Assembly (NCBI GenBank): GCA_049281335.1
Contig: JBAPRX010000684.1
Coordinates: 1 to 43,235 of the forward strand
Direction of reading: 5' to 3'
Length of the DNA: 43,235 nucleotides
Source: Candidatus Promineifilaceae bacterium
GTDB lineage: Bacteria; Chloroflexota; Anaerolineae; Promineifilales; Promineifilaceae
How positions within the stretch are numbered: position 1 is the first letter of the stretch; each line of letters opens with the position of its first letter. The position numbers and the translations under genes were made by a program. The notes under the pieces were generated by a model. That model was given only the letters and a program-made list of their open reading frames with translations. It was not told the origin of the DNA and ran no database searches. Positions 2,335 through 7,787 of the stretch are shown one piece after another.

Positions 2335-4866
2335 CTACGCATCGCGGAGTTTGGCTCCTAACTGCCGTTCTAACTGTTGGACAAGGCGCTGGCGGTTTTT
2401 GCGGATTTCTTTGTCGGTCAGCGTTTTGTTGGGGGATTGGAAGGTCAGGTGATAGGCCAAACTCTTCTTACCCTCCGGGATCGATTTGCCTTCGTAGACG
2501 TCAAACAGGGCGACTTCTTTGAGCAGGTATCCCCCTGCTCTCTCAATGGTGGCCTGGACGTCAACGGCCGAAACGGACTTGTCCAAAATTAGCGCGATGT
2601 CTTCATGCACAGCCGGGAAGACCGGAATTGGTTCAATCCGGTGACGGTCGGGGATATGGTTCAAGACGAGTTCCAGATCAATCTCAGCCGCGATCACAGG
2701 CCACTCGCCGCGAATGTCGAATCCTTCAACGACGGCGGGATGAAGACGGCCGAGCCAGCCAATCTGCTCTTCGCCTAACAACAGGCGGGCGGTCTGGCCG
2801 GGTCGGAAGGTGGGGTGCTGGCCGGGTGTGACAGATAAGTCGTCCATGTGAAGGGCGTCAAAGAGGGACTCCAACACCCCTTTCATATCGTAGAAGTCTA
2901 TTTCTTCGGGGGTGTCGTCATCCTGCCAGTGGTTCTGTCCGCGGCGGCCCATCATAAGCAGGGCCAGACGGCGCAGTTCGTCTGGCAAAATGCCTTCTTC
3001 GCTGGCAAGGTAAATGAGGCCCAACTCGAAGATGGCAATACGATCACGATAGCGACTGTTGGCGGCGGCGACTTCCAGAACGGAGGCCAGGAGGCTGTGG
3101 CGCATGGCAACCCGGTCTACAGTGATGGGGTTGGTCAGGGTGACATAGGGGCGGTCGTCTGGGGAAACAATCCCATTGGGGAGGAGTTTGGCTTCACGTT
3201 CGGCCGTTGTCAGCCGGTAGGTGATGATCTCCTGCAAACCGAGTTCGGTCAGAATGTCCTTGATATGTTCCTCGCGGGTCAGGTCAAGATTGTTGCGCTG
3301 GGGCGGCAGGCTGTCGGCCATCTCCGTTGTGGGAATGCGATCATAGCCGTAGACACGGCAGACTTCTTCTACCAGGTCGTGTGTCCCTTCGATGTCCATG
3401 CGGTGATCAGGGGCCGTAACCAGCAGGTGGTCGCCCTGCTCCTCTACAGTGAACTCCAGCGATTCGAGCATGGTTTTGATTTCAGACTGGCTGGGGTGGA
3501 TGCCACCAATGCGAGCCACTTCTGCGGCCGTTAATTGGATGGCTTTGAGTTCCGGGGGATTGGGGTAGTAGTCCACAATTCCCTGGCGGACGGTTCCACC
3601 GGCATGGCGGCGCAGGAGTTCGGCCGCTCGTTTTGCACCCAACAATGCCTGGCTGGGGTGAACGCCCCGGCTGAACCGGAAACCGGCTTCGCTGGTGATT
3701 TTCAATGCGTTGGTGCTGCGGCGAATGTTGATGAAATTCCAGGCAGCCGCTTCCAGCAGAACATTGGTGGTCGTGTCGCTGATTTCGCTGTCGAGGCCAC
3801 CCATAATGCCGCCTAAACTGAGGGAACCGACCGGGTCGGTGACAAGGATGTTGAACGGCAGCAGGGTGTGTTCTTCGCCGTCCAGGGTGGTCAGGGTTTC
3901 GCCTTCGTAGGGCAGGCGGGTGTGAATATGAATGGGGCCGCCAGGATTGTATTCGTCGGCACGGCGGCGGAGGAAGTCGTAATCGAAGGTGTGGTTGGGC
4001 TGGCCCATTTCGAGCATGACGTAGTTGCTGATGTCCACTACGACGTTGATCGGCCGTTGGCCAGCCAATCGGAGGCGGCGCTGCATCCAGGCGGGGCTTG
4101 GTTTTTGCTCGACCCCTTCTATGACCATTGCCACAAAGCGGGGGTTCAGGTCGGGGCGGTCAGTGGTCAGCTTGATCTGCCCTTCGACCGGCGAGCCATC
4201 CATTTCAACAGTGTAGTCGGGTTCTCGAAGCGTCTGGCCGGTCAGGGCAGCTACTTCGCGGGCGACACCGACAATGGAGGCACAGCGAGCGATGTTGGGG
4301 ATGACTTCGATGTCCAGAACGGCGTCGCCCAGGAGGTCTTGGAGCGGCGTTCCGGCAGTGTAGTCGCCTTCCATAATCAGGATGCCTTCGTGTTCGGCGC
4401 TGATGCCCAGTTCTTTTTCGGAACAGAGCATACAGTGGTTGTAGATGCCGCGCAGACTGCGGCCTTTGAGGGTCATTTTGACCTGGCCTTCTTTGTGGCC
4501 GTCGTACAGGACAGCGCCTTCGAAGGCGAAGGGGGAGTAGAGGTTTTGGTCGGCCAGATTGTCTTGTCCCAGGTAGGGGAAGAGGTTGGGGGCGCCGGTT
4601 ACGACAACTTCTGGTTCATCACCACCATAGTCTACCATTGCCAGCACCAGACGGTCGGCATCGGGGTGAGGATTGACGTCTAAAATTCGGCCGAGAACGA
4701 GCTTTTCACGATCCCAGACAAGGCGGTTGAGATCGTTGCCGCCGGGGATGCCGATGTATTCGATGTTGGCAACCTCCAACCCGGCGATTGTGAGTCGCTC
4801 GGCCAGTTCTTCAACGGGCAGAACGACGTCAACGTATTCTTTTAACCAGCTTATGGGTACTTTCAT
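2335..4866 (-). CDS. pheT: Phenylalanine--tRNA ligase beta subunit
   Basis: 843 aa. The N-terminus MKVPISWLKEYVD with a tRNA-binding domain, followed by B3/4, B5 and an FDX-ACB-like C-terminus, is typical of PheT. GTGGAG lies 8 nt before the ATG. Confidence 0.97.
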   Translation of the reverse strand: MKVPISWLKEYVDVVLPVEELAERLTIAGLEVANIEYIGIPGGNDLNRLVWDREKLVLGRILDVNPHPDADRLVLAMVDYGGDEPEVVVTGAPNLFPYLGQDNLADQNLYSPFAFEGAVLYDGHKEGQVKMTLKGRSLRGIYNHCMLCSEKELGISAEHEGILIMEGDYTAGTPLQDLLGDAVLDIEVIPNIARCASIVGVAREVAALTGQTLREPDYTVEMDGSPVEGQIKLTTDRPDLNPRFVAMVIEGVEQKPSPAWMQRRLRLAGQRPINVVVDISNYVMLEMGQPNHTFDYDFLRRRADEYNPGGPIHIHTRLPYEGETLTTLDGEEHTLLPFNILVTDPVGSLSLGGIMGGLDSEISDTTTNVLLEAAAWNFINIRRSTNALKITSEAGFRFSRGVHPSQALLGAKRAAELLRRHAGGTVRQGIVDYYPNPPELKAIQLTAAEVARIGGIHPSQSEIKTMLESLEFTVEEQGDHLLVTAPDHRMDIEGTHDLVEEVCRVYGYDRIPTTEMADSLPPQRNNLDLTREEHIKDILTELGLQEIITYRLTTAEREAKLLPNGIVSPDDRPYVTLTNPITVDRVAMRHSLLASVLEVAAANSRYRDRIAIFELGLIYLASEEGILPDELRRLALLMMGRRGQNHWQDDDTPEEIDFYDMKGVLESLFDALHMDDLSVTPGQHPTFRPGQTARLLLGEEQIGWLGRLHPAVVEGFDIRGEWPVIAAEIDLELVLNHIPDRHRIEPIPVFPAVHEDIALILDKSVSAVDVQATIERAGGYLLKEVALFDVYEGKSIPEGKKSLAYHLTFQSPNKTLTDKEIRKNRQRLVQQLERQLGAKLRDA

Positions 4867-4931: not shown

Positions 4932-5957
4932 TTAGAACTGTTCGAGGAAGCGCAGGTCGTTGCCCCAGAAATAGCGAATGTCTTCGATGCCATATTTGAG
5001 CATGGCGATGCGTTCCGGCCCCATGCCGAAGGCGAAGCCGGAGTATTTTTTCGGGTCATAACCACCGTTGCGAAGAACGGTGGGGTGGACCATGCCGCAG
5101 CCCAAGATTTCCAGCCAGCCGCTGTATTTGCAAACCTGACAGCCGGAACCACCGCAGAGGATACATTCGACGTCCATCTCGGCGCTGGGTTCGGTGAAGG
5201 GGAAGTAGTTGGCTCGGAAACGGACGCTGCGATCCGCACCAAACATGCGCCGGGCGAAGTCGGTCAGGGTTCCTTTAAGGTCGGCCAGGGTGATATGTTT
5301 GCCGACAGCCAGCCCTTCGACCTGATGAAATTGTATTTCGCTGCGGGCGGTTATCTGTTCGTAGCGGTAGCACATCCCAGGCAGGATGACGCGGATGGGT
5401 TCGGGATAATAGGAGTGCATGGCGTGAATCTGGCCGGGGCTGGTGTGGGTCCGGAGGATGACGCCGGGCGTGACGGTATGAAAGGTGTCCCAAAGGTCGC
5501 GGGCCGGATGGTGCTGGGGAATGTTTAATAATTCGAAGTTGTATTCGTCGGTTTCAACATCGCGGCTGCGGTAAATCTGGAAGCCCATGTCGCCCCAGAT
5601 ACGGTAGATTTCCCGCAGGGTTTGGGTGGCGGGGTGGAGACGGCCGCGATACTGTTTCCGACCTGGTAAGGTGACGTCTATTCTTTCGGCCGTCATCTGG
5701 TCTTGCAGCTCTTTGGCGCGTACCTGGGCTAGTTGCCTGTCATAAGCGGCCTGTAGTTTTTGCTTGACTTCGTTGACGCGCTTGCCAAAGAGCGGCCGTT
5801 CTTCCGGGGTCAGTTTGCCAATCTGGCGGGTCATGAGAGTCACCTGGCCCTTGGGGCCGAGGGTTTCCCGGTACCAGCCTTCGAGGGCGGCGGAAGATGC
5901 AGCCGTTTGTAGGGCGGCTTGTTGGGTGTTTAGGATGGTTTCTAGTTGGTCTAACAT
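4932..5957 (-). CDS. pheS: Phenylalanine--tRNA ligase alpha subunit
   Basis: 341 aa with class II aaRS motifs (HPARDLWDTF, GMVHPTVL, AFGMGPERIAMLKYGI). AAGGA lies before the ATG. Confidence 0.97.
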   Translation of the reverse strand: MLDQLETILNTQQAALQTAASSAALEGWYRETLGPKGQVTLMTRQIGKLTPEERPLFGKRVNEVKQKLQAAYDRQLAQVRAKELQDQMTAERIDVTLPGRKQYRGRLHPATQTLREIYRIWGDMGFQIYRSRDVETDEYNFELLNIPQHHPARDLWDTFHTVTPGVILRTHTSPGQIHAMHSYYPEPIRVILPGMCYRYEQITARSEIQFHQVEGLAVGKHITLADLKGTLTDFARRMFGADRSVRFRANYFPFTEPSAEMDVECILCGGSGCQVCKYSGWLEILGCGMVHPTVLRNGGYDPKKYSGFAFGMGPERIAMLKYGIEDIRYFWGNDLRFLEQF

Positions 5958-6100
5958 GCGTCTGTCCTTGGTGTGAATTTTTTACAAACTTTTGTTTTCA
6001 TAGATTTTGGTGCACGTGACTATCTGGAAATGCCAGAAAACAAAAGTAGTCTTTTAGTTGTAAATCTTCGGTGCAGGCGGGAAGGATACCATAGCCTACC

Positions 6101-6132
6101 AAAAACAAAAAACGCGGCCCTGGGGCCGCGTT
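6101..6132 (-). terminator. Intrinsic terminator in the pheS leader (candidate attenuator)
   Basis: Minus strand reads AACGCGGCC-CCAG-GGCCGCGTT followed by TTTTGTTTTT. It is a 9-bp GC-rich stem about 145 nt upstream of the pheS ATG and 33 nt after the leader-ORF stop. Confidence 0.75.
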
Positions 6133-6164
6133 CTGCTCAATTTATTCTGGTTGCTTGCTGCTTC

Positions 6165-6254
6165 TCAGCCGAAACAACCCTCCTTCGCAAACACGGCGTT
6201 GGTGGTGTTCATAAAGCTAAAAAAGAAGCCAAAAGCCAAGCGTTTTTCATTCAT
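6165..6254 (-). CDS. Candidate Phe-rich leader peptide of the pheST operon (29 aa)
   Basis: Hand translation: ATG AAT GAA AAA CGC TTG GCT TTT GGC TTC TTT TTT AGC TTT ATG ... TGA = MNEKRLAFGFFFSFMNTTNAVFAKEGCFG*. Five Phe fall within 7 codons. It sits between a promoter and a terminator. It is below the 60-aa cutoff of the ORF track. Confidence 0.5.
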   Translation of the reverse strand: MNEKRLAFGFFFSFMNTTNAVFAKEGCFG

Positions 6255-6263
6255 CGTGTGGGC

Positions 6264-6292
6264 ATCATATCAGTTTGACCAGTAGATGTCAA
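6264..6292 (-). promoter_or_regulatory. Sigma-70-type promoter for the pheST leader
   Basis: Minus strand reads TTGACA (6292..6287), a 17-nt spacer, then TATGAT (6269..6264). The leader ATG follows 9 nt after the -10, giving a very short or absent 5' UTR. Confidence 0.6.
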
Positions 6293-6425
6293 GACCTGAA
6301 GAGAGCGGATTGGAGGAGCAATTTTATACTACTTTTTTCCTTGTTGCTCTTCACATTAAGACAGGTGTATAATTGATACGCAATAATTTTGATAAACCTA
6401 AAATAGTATTTTGAGGAATGTTATT

Positions 6426-7787
6426 ATGGATTCTACAGCAAACAACATGACCTTTGAAGATCGCCTGAAGCAGCTTCAGGATGCTTTGGAAGCGAACAAT
6501 ATAGAAGCGGCGCTGGCGGTTCTGGCGGAGATACAGGTTCCAGATCAGGCTGAACTGGTTGACGAGTTGGACCCTGAGGCACAAGTGCTGTTACTGCCGG
6601 AATTACAACCGGCAGATTCGGCCGATATTCTGGAAGAAATGGATGAGACGCGGGCGGCCGAACTGGTCGCCTCCCTACCCCATGCAGCAGCCGTTCGGAT
6701 TTTGGATGAGATGGAACCAGATGAAGCGGCCGATCTGTTGGGTGACCTGGAACCGGATCAGGCCCGTACCTTTCTGGCCCGGTTGGAAGATGCAGCAGAG
6801 ATTCGGCCGCTTTTGCTGCACCCTGACGACAGCGCCGGTGGTCTGATGACCTCTGAATATCTGGCGCTGCGACGACGGACGACTGCGGCCGACGCCCTGG
6901 CGGCGGTACGGGATTGGCAGCCTAAGACGAACAGATTGTCTGACCTCTTTGTGATTGATCGGGACGGGCTTTTATGCGGCGTGGTGTCGCTGCTGCAACT
7001 GGTGATGGCAAAACCGGCCGATCTGGTGATGGATTTGATGGACCCGGAGCCGACCTGGGCGGCTGTTGGCAGCGACCAGGAAACGGTTGCGAGGTTGTTC
7101 ACCCGTTATGATCTGCTGGCGCTGCCGGTTGTCAATGATGCCCACAAGCTGGTGGGTGTTATTACGATTGACGACGTGATTGACGTGTTGGAAGATGAGG
7201 CGACGGAAGACATCCAACGGTTGGGCGGCGCGGAGCCATTGGAACGGCCGTATCTGGATACGCCGGTCTTCAGCATTGCCCGAAAGCGGGTCGGCTGGCT
7301 GCTGCTGCTCTTTCTGACAGAAAGTCTGACCGGAAGCGTCCTGCGCCTGTTTGAAGGCGAACTGCAAGCGGTGGTGGCGCTCTCATTCTTTATTCCGCTG
7401 CTCATCGGCACGGGCGGGAATGCCGGTTCCCAGACGACCAGCACCATTATCCGGGCGCTGGCAGTGGGAGACATCCGGCTGCGGGATGCGGTGGCCTCTT
7501 TTTGGCACGAACTGCGGATTGGGCTGCTGCTGGCGGTTATTATGGCCGGGATTGCCTATGGACGGGCGCTGTTGTGGGGAACGACTCCGGCGCTGGCGAT
7601 GGCCGTTGCTATTTCTATTCTTACGATTATACTTTGGGCAAATAGTCTTGGTGCGCTGCTGCCTTTAGGCGCTGCCGCCCTAAAACTGGACCCAACTGTC
7701 GTTTCTGGCCCGGCGATGAGCACCCTGGTAGATGCGACCGGTTTGTTTATCTATTTCACCGTTGCACGGATAATAATTGGTCTGTAA
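6426..7787 (+). CDS. mgtE: Magnesium transporter MgtE
   Basis: MgtE N-domain, tandem CBS region and a C-terminal TM domain with IGTGGNAGSQTTSTIIRAL. GAGGAA lies 7 nt upstream of the ATG at 6426. The track start at 6411 is a TTG. Confidence 0.93.
   Translation: MDSTANNMTFEDRLKQLQDALEANNIEAALAVLAEIQVPDQAELVDELDPEAQVLLLPELQPADSADILEEMDETRAAELVASLPHAAAVRILDEMEPDEAADLLGDLEPDQARTFLARLEDAAEIRPLLLHPDDSAGGLMTSEYLALRRRTTAADALAAVRDWQPKTNRLSDLFVIDRDGLLCGVVSLLQLVMAKPADLVMDLMDPEPTWAAVGSDQETVARLFTRYDLLALPVVNDAHKLVGVITIDDVIDVLEDEATEDIQRLGGAEPLERPYLDTPVFSIARKRVGWLLLLFLTESLTGSVLRLFEGELQAVVALSFFIPLLIGTGGNAGSQTTSTIIRALAVGDIRLRDAVASFWHELRIGLLLAVIMAGIAYGRALLWGTTPALAMAVAISILTIILWANSLGALLPLGAAALKLDPTVVSGPAMSTLVDATGLFIYFTVARIIIGL

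What the first reader, a model, noticed from the sequence alone, without database searches (positions are those of the whole stretch)
6101..6292. Phe-rich leader ORF plus intrinsic terminator upstream of pheST: candidate ribosome-mediated attenuator outside the enterobacteria
Seen on the minus strand, in order: a TTGACA-17-TATGAT promoter (6292..6264); 9 nt later an ATG opening MNEKRLAFGFFFSFMNTTNAVFAKEGCFG* (6254..6165; TTT GGC TTC TTT TTT AGC TTT gives 5 Phe in 7 codons); 33 nt later a 9-bp GC stem plus TTTTGTTTTT (6132..6101); then about 145 nt to the pheS ATG. By eye, GCCGUGUU (6197..6190) can pair with AACGCGGC (6132..6125), the 5' arm of the terminator, which gives a possible antiterminator. 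There is no Shine-Dalgarno, but the ATG sits at or within a few nt of the predicted start site, so translation may be leaderless. Established: E. coli pheST is controlled by attenuation through the Phe-rich leader peptide PheM. Firmicutes and many other Gram-positive-type lineages use T-box leaders for pheS. Inference: this is an independently evolved or unreported Phe-codon attenuator in a lineage where a T-box would be expected.
Basis: partly seen in the sequence, partly recalled or inferred. Interest (0 to 1): 0.65.

Follow-up and report, generated by a model that had tools for sequence, protein, structure and literature searches.

The report
Phenylalanine-sensing leader-peptide attenuator of pheST
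Upstream of the phenylalanyl-tRNA synthetase genes of this uncultured Chloroflexota bacterium sits a textbook-style "leader peptide" switch, conserved in dozens of relatives, that should raise pheST transcription when ribosomes stall for lack of charged tRNA-Phe; I found no earlier report of this mechanism in this phylum, whose more distant relatives use T-box RNAs at the same gene.

Summary
On the minus strand there is a strong promoter, a 29-codon ORF with 5 Phe in 7 codons, an intrinsic terminator, then pheS and pheT.

The interpretation, a ribosome-mediated Phe attenuator, is strongly supported by comparison, but nothing was measured.

- The element precedes pheS in 28 related Chloroflexota genomes (Ardenticatenales/Promineifilales-like). 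These share the promoter, the Phe run and a near-invariant terminator core.
- In 29 of 29 loci, a ribosome modelled as stalled on the Phe run leaves a ~70-nt antiterminator hairpin free to capture the terminator's 5' arm. This hairpin starts 13-22 nt after the last Phe codon; in the E. coli pheM control the gap is 14 nt.
- In 22 of 29 loci the ribosome-free ground state pairs the Phe codons with the antiterminator's 3' half and forms the terminator.
- The antiterminator strands co-vary (0 of 20,000 permutations reach the observed value).
- The same chassis in metagenomes carries Phe/Tyr codons before chorismate mutase and DAHP synthase, and Tyr codons before tyrS.
- More distant Anaerolineae have T-boxes before pheS.
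- The leader mRNA probably has a 3-nt 5' UTR, so it is near-leaderless.

Verdict: a real, independently evolved member of a known kind of regulator. Interest is moderate.

The parts
6287..6292 (-). -35 hexamer TTGACA of the leader promoter P1
   Evidence: the promoter matches 11 of 12 consensus positions. TTGAC(A/G/C/T) or TTGCnn sits 16-17 nt (17 in 25 loci) upstream of TAnnnT in 26 of 29 related loci.
6264..6272 (-). Extended -10 element TGATATGAT (TGn + TATGAT)
   Evidence: TGnTAnnnT is conserved in relatives and is followed by 7-10 nt (most often 9) before the leader ATG.
6257..6257 (-). Predicted transcription start (A), 3 nt before the leader AUG. Inferred, not mapped.
   Evidence: in 18 loci with a 9-nt gap, position 7 after the -10 hexamer is a purine in 17 (94%). 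Positions 6 and 8 are mostly pyrimidines.
6165..6254 (-). Leader ORF, 29 codons plus stop: MNEKRLAFGFFFSFMNTTNAVFAKEGCFG*
   Evidence: Homologous short ORFs of 18-35 aa lie at the same place in 28 related genomes.
6213..6233 (-). Regulatory Phe codons, TTT GGC TTC TTT TTT AGC TTT (5 Phe in 7 codons)
   Evidence: Phe makes up 18.8% of residues in the 29 leaders against 3.4% in long ORFs. There are 145 in-frame Phe codons against 59 and 63 in the other two frames.
6215..6241 (-). Segment 1: 5' strand of the anti-antiterminator, which covers the Phe codons
   Evidence: in the ribosome-free MFE, 6241..6215 pairs with 6170..6153. An equivalent pairing occurs in 22 of 29 loci.
6153..6170 (-). Segment 2: 3' strand of the anti-antiterminator. 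It shares nucleotides with the antiterminator's inner helix and contains the stop codon.
   Evidence: Phe-region and post-stop segments from the same locus (cognate) pair more stably than segments from different loci (non-cognate): -11.5 vs -9.7 kcal/mol, and 5 of 10,000 permutations reach this.
6125..6197 (-). Antiterminator hairpin (73 nt). The outer helix is 6197..6190 with 6132..6125. The inner helices are 6179..6166 with 6160..6149. The stop codon lies in the apical part.
   Evidence: -27.3 kcal/mol, z = -3.96. It forms in 29 of 29 loci when a ribosome is masked on the Phe run. The strands co-vary.
6099..6134 (-). Intrinsic terminator: stem 6134..6124 with 6119..6109, loop 6123..6120, U-tract 6108..6099
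   Evidence: The core CGCGGC...GCCGCG is almost invariant in 29 loci, and 4 of 9 consensus pairs show compensatory changes.
6083..6093 (-). Conserved motif TATGGTATCCT after the terminator. It looks like an extended -10 promoter (possible P2). Its function is unproven.
   Evidence: The motif, with at most 2 mismatches, lies 14-32 nt after the terminator in 17 of 29 loci. Across whole loci it occurs about once per 8 kb.
4932..5957 (-). pheS, phenylalanine--tRNA ligase alpha subunit (341 aa): the regulated gene
   Evidence: Pfam PF02912 and PF01409.
2335..4866 (-). pheT, phenylalanine--tRNA ligase beta subunit (843 aa), co-transcribed with pheS
   Evidence: pheT follows pheS in most related loci.

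Best explanation
This is a classical ribosome-mediated transcription attenuator that senses charged tRNA-Phe and controls pheST.

Proposed sequence of events:
1. Transcription starts at a strong extended -10 promoter about 3 nt before an AUG. A ribosome can therefore load on the 5' end with no Shine-Dalgarno sequence and follow RNA polymerase closely.
2. When Phe-tRNA is scarce, the ribosome stalls on the Phe run (6233..6213). This covers segment 1 but leaves GCCGUGUU (6197..6190) free; in WIN the gap from the last Phe codon to this strand is 15 nt.
3. The downstream RNA then folds into a 73-nt hairpin (6197..6125). Its outer helix sequesters the terminator's 5' arm before the 3' arm is made, so polymerase reads through into pheS and pheT.
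4. When Phe-tRNA is plentiful, the ribosome runs on to the stop codon. The stop codon lies in the apical part of that hairpin, so the ribosome occupies the hairpin's 5' strand.
5. After release, the Phe-codon strand (6241..6215) pairs with 6170..6153. The terminator (6134..6109 plus U-tract) then forms and the roughly 155-nt leader transcript ends.

Shown: the sequence features, their conservation, their geometry and the strand covariation.
Inferred: the start site, translation of the ORF, coupling of ribosome to polymerase, termination, and the Phe response.
For: 1. Conservation with the gene. A Phe-rich short ORF plus terminator lies upstream of pheS in 28 related genomes. The upstream neighbour differs: mgtE is found only in the window.

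2. Geometry. With a ribosome masked on the last Phe codon and the RNA cut before the terminator's 3' arm, the 5' arm pairs with a GCCGYG strand in 29 of 29 loci. That strand starts 13-22 nt (most often 15-16) after the last Phe codon, and the hairpins are 68-83 nt long. The same holds in 27 further metagenome loci. The experimentally established E. coli pheM attenuator behaves the same way in this pipeline, with a 14-nt gap.

3. RNA-level constraint. GCCGCG is kept in different reading frames: GCC GCG; CTG CCG CGT in L023 and L031; ACG CCG TGT in L008 and L014. Variation there is mostly C/U, which preserves pairing. 84.8% of cells pair, against 27-51% when the partner columns are slid.

4. Covariation. 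Inner antiterminator strands taken from the same locus (cognate) give -15.4 kcal/mol against -11.8 for strands from different loci (non-cognate); 0 of 10,000 permutations reach this. With 56 hairpins the values are -15.7 vs -12.2, 0 of 20,000, and a reversed-strand control shows no advantage. Mean hairpin z is -2.7, and 20 of 29 fall below -2. Four of 9 terminator pairs are compensatory.

5. Off state. In 22 of 29 loci the ribosome-free MFE pairs the Phe-codon region with the antiterminator's 3' half and forms the terminator. This is the layout of Rfam Phe_leader, which gives a full-length sub-threshold match at 6105..6255.

6. Codon identity tracks the downstream gene on the same chassis. FYFYF leaders precede chorismate mutase and DAHP synthase, and Tyr-run leaders precede tyrS.

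7. In L012 the terminator ends 17 nt before the pheS ATG. There, pheS can only be transcribed by read-through.

8. Phe enrichment is codon-level: 145 in-frame Phe codons against 59 and 63 out of frame.
Against: - No experimental data exist: no start-site map, no terminated transcript, no Phe response.
- Pair-level covariation of the outer antiterminator helix is weak because its core is nearly invariant (34 of 500 shuffles reach its covariation score).
- RNAalifold found no consensus antiterminator on MAFFT alignments, because the helices shift register between loci.
- At equilibrium the terminator is favoured even in the stalled state. Read-through therefore has to be kinetic, as in other attenuators.
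- A ribosome at the stop codon does not physically cover the outer strand 6197..6190 in the main group. The off switch thus relies on loss of the inner helix (inference).
- In 17 of 29 loci the ribosome-free truncated RNA still folds the antiterminator.
- A conserved promoter-like motif lies after the terminator in 17 of 29 loci, including the window. It could supply attenuator-independent pheST transcription.
- Some leaders have weak runs, with only 2-3 Phe in 7 residues.
- Transcription-translation coupling has not been studied in this lineage, as far as I know.
Confidence: 0.85

Rival explanations
1. The short ORF with its promoter and terminator is a separate small gene (a hydrophobic micro-protein or a small RNA). 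pheST is transcribed from its own promoter after the terminator, and there is no regulatory link.
For: A conserved extended -10-like motif, TATGGTATGCT, lies 14-32 nt after the terminator in 17 of 29 loci, at 6093..6083 in the window. In L021 the terminator is kept but the leader ORF is gone, and a TGCTAAAAT promoter-like site follows it.
Against: The peptide is not conserved outside the Phe run, and the conserved nucleotides shift reading frame. The codons match the downstream gene in three different operon types. A conserved, co-varying antiterminator overlaps the terminator. Twelve of 29 loci lack the motif, and L012 has no room for a promoter.
Confidence: 0.05
2. The terminator/antiterminator switch is set by a trans-acting factor rather than by ribosome stalling. 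The factor could be an RNA-binding protein, an uncharged tRNA, or PheRS itself. The Phe-rich ORF would then be incidental or only auxiliary.
For: The terminator core CGCGGC and its mimic GCCGCG are unusually invariant across genera. A conserved GGAGG lies inside the hairpin. Both could be read as binding sites. The thermodynamic models do not give a clean off state with a ribosome at the stop codon.
Against: There is no match to T-box or any other Rfam family. The only feature that changes with the regulated gene is the identity of the codon run. The 13-22 nt spacing between the run and the antiterminator equals a ribosome footprint and matches E. coli pheM. Three-way pairing plus coding constraint explains the invariance.
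Confidence: 0.05
3. Stalling on the leader ORF regulates translation or mRNA stability of pheS rather than transcription termination, as the leaderless poly-Cys sORFs of mycobacteria do.
For: Leaderless sORF attenuators that act on translation exist (bioRxiv 10.1101/834739). The 5' UTR between terminator and pheS is long in the window, about 140 nt.
Against: A canonical terminator (11-bp stem plus U-tract, -19.4 kcal/mol) is the conserved partner of the alternative hairpin. The pheS ribosome-binding site is not involved in the conserved pairings, and its distance from the element varies from 17 to 204 nt.
Confidence: 0.03

Closest known systems
E. coli pheM-pheST attenuator (leader peptide [14 protein letters not shown]; Springer et al. 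1985, as cited in PMC11802643)
   Same: It regulates the same operon with the same logic. It has a run of Phe codons, and a strand that mimics the terminator's 3' arm begins 14 nt after the last Phe codon (13-22 nt here). The Phe codons pair with a downstream segment in the off state, and an intrinsic terminator precedes pheS. It behaves identically in my folding pipeline.
   Different: There is no sequence similarity beyond the Phe codons. The E. coli ORF has 14 codons and stops 5 nt before the antiterminator strand, whereas here the ORF has 29 codons and runs through that strand to a stop in the hairpin's apical part. E. coli pheM has a normal 5' UTR with a Shine-Dalgarno sequence and lies behind thrS-infC-rpmI-rplT. 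Here the gap from the -10 hexamer to the AUG is 9 nt, the neighbour is a divergent mgtE, and neighbours vary in relatives.
Rfam RF01859 Phe_leader (pheL-pheA leader of Gammaproteobacteria)
   Same: The overall layout is the same: the Phe-codon strand pairs downstream, followed by a terminator. The model aligns end to end with 6105..6255.
   Different: The score is 23.6 bits against a gathering threshold of 55 (E = 0.14), so this is not a family member. The regulated gene is an aminoacyl-tRNA synthetase, not pheA.
Corynebacterium glutamicum aroR-aroF attenuator, and leaderless attenuator transcripts of Actinobacteria (Neshat et al. 2014, as summarised in PMC11802643; PMC11857589)
   Same: A Phe-Tyr-Phe leader peptide controls a DAHP synthase operon, like the FYFYF leaders found here before aroH and aroF. 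Leader ORFs are translated from leaderless mRNAs.
   Different: The phylum and the sequence differ. Here one chassis (promoter, spacing, terminator core) is reused for pheST, tyrS and aroH-aroF.
T-box leaders of pheS in other Anaerolineae (Rfam RF00230)
   Same: They sit at the same position, precede the same gene, end in a terminator read-out, and respond to the same physiological signal (tRNA-Phe charging). They are present in 24 of the more distant loci.
   Different: They sense uncharged tRNA directly, with no ORF. The window has no T-box.
Leaderless poly-Cys sORF attenuators of mycobacteria (bioRxiv 10.1101/834739)
   Same: A 5'-terminal short ORF with a run of one codon acts as a ribosome-stalling sensor, and several operons share the design (a 'ribulon').
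   Different: Those act on downstream translation by unmasking a ribosome-binding site. This element is built around an intrinsic terminator.

Membership tests
Ribosome-mediated (leader-peptide) transcription attenuator | Short translatable ORF in the 5' leader, co-oriented with the regulated gene | tested here: met
   A 29-codon ORF lies at 6254..6165, and ORFs of 18-35 aa lie at the same place in 28 relatives. Translation itself was not tested.
Ribosome-mediated (leader-peptide) transcription attenuator | Cluster of codons for the amino acid relevant to the regulated gene | tested here: met
   There are 5 Phe in 7 codons. Phe is 18.8% of residues against 3.4% background, and the Phe codons are in frame. 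The codon type tracks pheST, aroH-aroF and tyrS.
Ribosome-mediated (leader-peptide) transcription attenuator | Intrinsic terminator between the ORF and the regulated gene | tested here: met
   The stem is 6134..6109, followed by a U-tract, at -19.4 kcal/mol. It is conserved and has compensatory pairs.
Ribosome-mediated (leader-peptide) transcription attenuator | Antiterminator that uses the terminator's 5' arm, placed so that a ribosome stalled on the regulatory codons allows it | tested here: met
   It forms in 29 of 29 loci, and in 27 of 27 further loci, in masked folds. The gap is 12-23 nt and the strands co-vary. This is in silico only.
Ribosome-mediated (leader-peptide) transcription attenuator | Anti-antiterminator (1:2) pairing that involves the regulatory-codon region | tested here: met
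   6241..6215 pairs with 6170..6153 in the window. At least 6 such pairs occur in 22 of 29 loci. The covariation signal is weaker.
Ribosome-mediated (leader-peptide) transcription attenuator | Read-through that increases when the cognate charged tRNA is limiting | not testable with these tools
   This needs RNA measurements or reporter assays.
Rfam RF01859 Phe_leader | Covariance-model score at or above the gathering threshold (55 bits) | tested here: not met
   23.6 bits, E = 0.14, full-length alignment at 6105..6255 on the minus strand.
T-box leader (RF00230) | T-box covariance-model match, or the conserved GGGUGGUACCGCG motif | tested here: not met
   There is no Rfam hit in the window at the gathering threshold or at E <= 10 in 5900..6450. 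There is no motif in the window or in the 28 related leader loci.
Leaderless mRNA | Transcription start at, or within a few nt of, the start codon | tested here: inconclusive
   The spacing from the -10 hexamer to the ATG is conserved at 7-10 nt, most often 9. A purine at position 7 in 17 of 18 loci predicts a 3-nt 5' UTR. Typical leaderless genes have TANNNT about 12 nt before the start (PMC3160421). No start-site data exist.

The most novel reading that the evidence does not exclude
A clade of Chloroflexota (Ardenticatenales/Promineifilales-like) replaced T-box control with a reusable, near-leaderless attenuator cassette. The cassette has a fixed promoter, a fixed distance of about 115-130 nt from ATG to terminator, and an invariant CGCGGC terminator/antiterminator core. 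It was duplicated and reprogrammed simply by swapping the codon run: Phe for pheST, Tyr for tyrS, Phe/Tyr for aroH-aroF. The result would be an aromatic amino-acid 'ribulon'. Its existence would also be genomic evidence that transcription and translation are tightly coupled in this poorly studied phylum.
Probability: 0.45. Interest if true: 0.65.

Novelty: new member of a known kind. Interest (0 to 1): 0.5.

Why it matters
- It extends classical leader-peptide attenuation, so far described in the literature I could check for Proteobacteria, Actinobacteria and some Firmicutes, to Chloroflexota. I found no report of it there.
- Sister lineages use T-boxes, leader peptides of two designs, or neither at the same gene. 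This is a natural experiment in regulator turnover.
- Leader-peptide attenuation needs a ribosome to follow RNA polymerase closely. These elements therefore predict transcription-translation coupling in this lineage, and the near-leaderless start suggests how loading is made fast.
- The short ORFs should be annotated as leader peptides, not as hypothetical proteins.
- The shared chassis with exchangeable codon runs is a compact amino-acid sensor that could be reused in synthetic biology.

Tried and rejected
- Rfam at the gathering threshold over the whole window found nothing. In E-value mode it gave only a sub-threshold Phe_leader match plus chance sRNA hits on the terminator.
- RNAalifold on MAFFT alignments found the terminator but no antiterminator, either on all 29 hairpins (A2) or on a 14-sequence subset (A3). 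The inner helices shift register between loci (for example by 3 columns between the window and L004). Pair-by-pair counting on these alignments would therefore be meaningless, so I used alignment-free tests that compare same-locus with different-locus strand pairs.
- mafft-qinsi is not usable in the sandbox. I did not build a covariance model.
- Looking up the exact PheS protein to name the source organism returned only a 1.25-kb Logan contig.
- I tested whether the post-terminator motif sits in the loop of a conserved hairpin. The flanking stems are strong in a few loci (L007, L016, the window) but inconsistent overall, so I dropped the idea.
- A scan of the 43-kb window for other pairs of terminator and codon-run ORF found none.
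- Full-length equilibrium folds with ribosome masks do not separate the on and off states, because the terminator is always more stable. Folds truncated before the 3' arm are the relevant kinetic proxy.
Full report
1. THE OBSERVATION

Reading the minus strand confirms every coordinate in the finding.
- Promoter: TTGACA (6292..6287), 17 nt, TATGAT (6269..6264), preceded by TG. It matches 11 of 12 consensus positions and is the best promoter-like site in 5500..7000.
- ORF: 9 nt later, ATG at 6254 opens MNEKRLAFGFFFSFMNTTNAVFAKEGCFG*, with the stop at 6167..6165. There are five Phe in seven codons at 6233..6213.
- Terminator: an 11-bp hairpin with 7 G-C pairs at 6134..6109, at -19.4 kcal/mol, followed by a U-tract.
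- Genes: pheS starts at 5957 and pheT follows.
- The Phe run is not a by-product of base composition. None of 20,000 shuffles of the ORF reach it, and Phe is 3.4% of residues in the window's long ORFs.
- The simple terminator scan is not significant on its own (1 found, 1.9 expected).
- Rfam finds no T-box or any other family at curated thresholds. In permissive mode the gammaproteobacterial Phe_leader model aligns end to end with 6105..6255 but scores only 23.6 bits (threshold 55).

2. WHERE THE WINDOW COMES FROM, AND WHAT RELATIVES SHOW

PheS finds 80 loci in species-representative genomes, all Chloroflexota. The nearest (up to 81% identity) are labelled Ardenticatenaceae, Promineifilaceae or Anaerolineae.

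In 28 of these loci a short ORF with a Phe run precedes pheS, for example MNAEAQARFFSFFFFTNT... and MKRIRFFFFSF.... Each is followed by a terminator whose core, CGCGGC...GCCGCG, is almost invariant, while outer pairs change in a compensatory way.

The distance from ATG to the end of the terminator stays between 143 and 169 nt. The upstream neighbour is not conserved: mgtE occurs only in the window. The element therefore travels with pheS.

Across the 29 leaders, Phe is 18.8% of residues. Phe codons are in frame 145 times, against 59 and 63 in the other frames.

3. PROMOTER AND START OF TRANSLATION

Of the 29 loci, 26 have TTGACn or TTGCnn, a 16-17 nt spacer (17 nt in 25 of them), and TAnnnT, usually with the TG of an extended -10. 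The leader ATG follows 7-10 nt later, most often 9 nt.

In the 18 loci with a 9-nt gap, position 7 is a purine in 17, flanked by pyrimidine-rich positions. This fits a start site 7 nt after the -10 hexamer. I therefore infer a 3-nt 5' UTR. There is no room for a Shine-Dalgarno sequence, so translation must start in the leaderless manner.

Surveys place TANNNT about 12 nt before the start codon of leaderless genes and detect such signals in Chloroflexi (PMC3160421). Here the hexamer's first T is 15 nt before the ATG, so "near-leaderless" is the accurate term.

Two relatives, L010 and L026, instead have longer 5' UTRs with AAGGA or GAGGA before the ORF.

4. ALTERNATIVE RNA STRUCTURES

I folded each leader cut just before the terminator's 3' arm, which is the RNA that exists when the decision is made. 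I masked a ribosome on the last Phe codon plus 12 nt.

- On state. In 29 of 29 loci the terminator's 5' arm then pairs with a GCCGYG strand that begins 13-22 nt (most often 15-16) after the last Phe codon. This closes a hairpin of 68-83 nt. In the window it is 6197..6125, at -27.3 kcal/mol with z = -3.96.
- Position of the stop codon. It lies in the apical part of the hairpin in 24 loci and directly at the GCCGYG strand in 5 (L008, L014, L023, L027, L031).
- Off state. Without a ribosome, the full-length minimum-energy fold of the window pairs the Phe-codon strand 6241..6215 with 6170..6153 and forms the terminator. Because 6170..6153 overlaps both strands of the antiterminator's apical and inner helices (6170..6166 and 6160..6153), this is a true anti-antiterminator. 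Twenty-two of 29 loci do the same.
- Positive control. I ran the E. coli pheM-pheST leader, taken from NC_000913, through the same script. The stalled state gives the GGAGGCU:AGCCUCC antiterminator 14 nt after the last Phe codon. The naked and at-stop states give the 1:2 helix.

5. IS THE STRUCTURE SELECTED?

- Reading frame. The GCCGCG strand is kept although its reading frame differs between loci: GCC GCG in most, CTG CCG CGT in L023 and L031, ACG CCG TGT in L008 and L014. Ala/Val changes (GCG/GUG) keep the pair. This argues for an RNA-level constraint, not a peptide-level one.
- Outer helix. On alignment A1 it is paired in 84.8% of cells, against 27-51% when partners are slid. Its core hardly varies, so covariation is weak (34 of 500 shuffles reach its score).
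- Inner helices. These vary a lot and shift register, which defeats RNAalifold on MAFFT alignments. I therefore asked whether the two halves of each hairpin fit their own partner better than the partners from other loci. I split each hairpin at its midpoint and removed the conserved 8-nt ends.
  - Result: -15.4 vs -11.8 kcal/mol, with 0 of 10,000 permutations as good.
  - With 56 hairpins: -15.7 vs -12.2, 0 of 20,000. A reversed-strand control shows no such advantage.
- Stability. Hairpin stability exceeds dinucleotide shuffles, with mean z = -2.7 and 20 of 29 below -2.
- Anti-antiterminator. Its strands show a smaller same-locus advantage, -11.5 vs -9.7, with 5 of 10,000 permutations as good.

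6. THE STRONGEST FUNCTIONAL ARGUMENT: CODONS FOLLOW THE GENE

A metagenome scan for the terminator core recovered more Phe-leader/pheS loci. It also recovered the same chassis (TTGACn, 17 nt, TAnnnT, 6-10 nt, ATG, with the terminator 113-132 nt after the ATG) in front of other genes:
- Leaders such as MLTKPVYFYFYFFS... and MTEHVRFFAFYFYFTG... precede chorismate mutase (Pfam CM_1) and/or DAHP synthase (DAHP_synth_1 plus its ferredoxin-like domain).
- Leaders such as ...QFAYYYRQ... and MLRLTYAYAYC... precede tyrosyl-tRNA synthetase.

All of them form the equivalent antiterminator 12-23 nt after the last regulatory codon, and the stop codon lies about 30 nt into the hairpin. The terminator core in this set is fixed by the search pattern, so its invariance there is not evidence. 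In the genome set found through PheS, it is.

7. DISTRIBUTION

- T-boxes. Twenty-four of the more distant Anaerolineae loci carry the T-box motif before pheS. Two pass Rfam's gathering score and one more. In one search, all ten loci tested give full-length T-box matches, with E from 1e-11 to 2e-20.
- A second leader design. Six loci, three labelled Caldilineaceae and three Anaerolineales or Anaerolineae, have a different Phe leader. It is an SD-led ORF of 46-62 aa with an FFF(F) run, a different terminator core (GGGCGCGAC or GGGCGCAGCC), and the same antiterminator logic.
- About twenty loci show neither.

Leader-peptide and T-box control thus alternate within one phylum. Such switches are known between Firmicutes and Proteobacteria (PMC2965389).

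8. CAVEATS

- A conserved motif, TATGGTATGCT, which looks like an extended -10, lies 14-32 nt after the terminator in 17 of 29 loci (window 6093..6083). If it is a promoter, it gives pheST a basal, attenuator-independent transcript, which would be sensible for an essential gene. It does not refute attenuation: 12 loci lack it, and in L012 the terminator ends 17 nt before the pheS ATG.
- At equilibrium the terminator wins even in the stalled state, so read-through must be kinetic.
- A ribosome at the stop codon covers the inner 5' strand but not 6197..6190. The remaining 8-bp helix would have to close a loop of more than 50 nt around a ribosome, and I infer that the terminator's 3' arm displaces it.
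- Nothing here measures transcription, translation or the Phe response.

9. COMPARISON AND NOVELTY

- Mechanism. This works like E. coli pheM-pheST and pheL-pheA. It is not a member of Rfam Phe_leader, shares no synteny or sequence with them, and is best seen as convergent.
- Precedents. Leaderless leader ORFs and a Phe-Tyr-Phe leader before aroF are known in Corynebacterium (PMC11802643, PMC11857589). Leaderless codon-run sensors are known in mycobacteria.
- Literature. Full-text searches found no report of classical attenuation in Chloroflexi or Anaerolineae. One survey explicitly treated Chloroflexi as too sparsely sampled (PMC4833913). A 2010 comparative paper (Lopatovskaya et al.) is not in the library, so priority cannot be excluded.

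I class this as a new member of a known kind. It is of moderate interest, chiefly for three reasons: the modular multi-operon family, the T-box replacement, and what it implies about transcription-translation coupling in this phylum.

Noticed in passing
window 6083-6093 (minus strand); also L001-L022, 14-32 nt after the terminator: A conserved 11-nt motif, TATGGTATGCT (window: TATGGTATCCT), resembles an extended -10 promoter. It is present in 17 of 29 leader loci. In a few loci (L007, L016, the window) it sits between inverted repeats, but not consistently.
   Followed up: partly
L099, L106, L111, L114, L120, L128, L129, L132, L153, L156, L157, L163 (metagenome loci): The same promoter/ORF/terminator chassis carries alternating Phe/Tyr codons (FYFYF). 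Wherever enough downstream sequence is available it sits upstream of chorismate mutase (AroH type) and/or DAHP synthase. No hit to either was obtained downstream for L163, and L128, L129 and L153 are too short to tell.
   Followed up: partly
L112, L115, L138, L173, L187 (metagenome loci): The same chassis carries Tyr-rich leaders (FAYYYRQ, TYAYAYC, IYYG, FSYYAYG) upstream of tyrS.
   Followed up: partly
L040, L045, L062, L064, L072, L076 (upstream of pheS at about 3001 in each): A second, sequence-unrelated Phe leader occurs in loci labelled Caldilineaceae, Anaerolineales or Anaerolineae. It has an SD-led ORF of 46-62 aa with a hydrophobic, TM-like segment ending in an FFF(F) run. It also has its own terminator core and a matching antiterminator.
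   Followed up: partly
L021:2600-3000 (Candidatus Hadersleviella danica): The conserved terminator (GAAACGCGGC...GCCGCGTTTT) is kept, but the leader ORF and its promoter are absent. An upstream gene ends just before the terminator, and a TGCTAAAAT promoter-like site follows it. The attenuator has apparently been lost.
   Followed up: no
window 6178-6182 (GGAGG, minus strand) and the same place in most leaders: An SD-like GGAGG lies inside the leader ORF, most often 11 nt before the stop codon. It is part of the antiterminator's 5' strand. It might also hold the terminating ribosome through anti-SD pairing, but this is unexplained.
   Followed up: no
L085, L097, L164 (metagenome loci): The same terminator core precedes a conserved ABC-transporter ATPase-like gene. 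L097 has the promoter-plus-ATG chassis with a leader that lacks any obvious codon run (MNRQQKWMHNSPYTVIFGATAERLGRFVP).
   Followed up: no
L010 and L026, upstream of pheS: Two Phe leaders have longer 5' UTRs with AAGGA or GAGGA 7-8 nt before the ORF's AUG, in place of the near-leaderless arrangement. The mode of initiation is therefore interchangeable.
   Followed up: no
window 6411/6426-7787 (plus strand): A divergent mgtE (magnesium transporter) starts about 130 nt from the leader promoter. No M-box or other Rfam element was found in the shared intergenic region.
   Followed up: no
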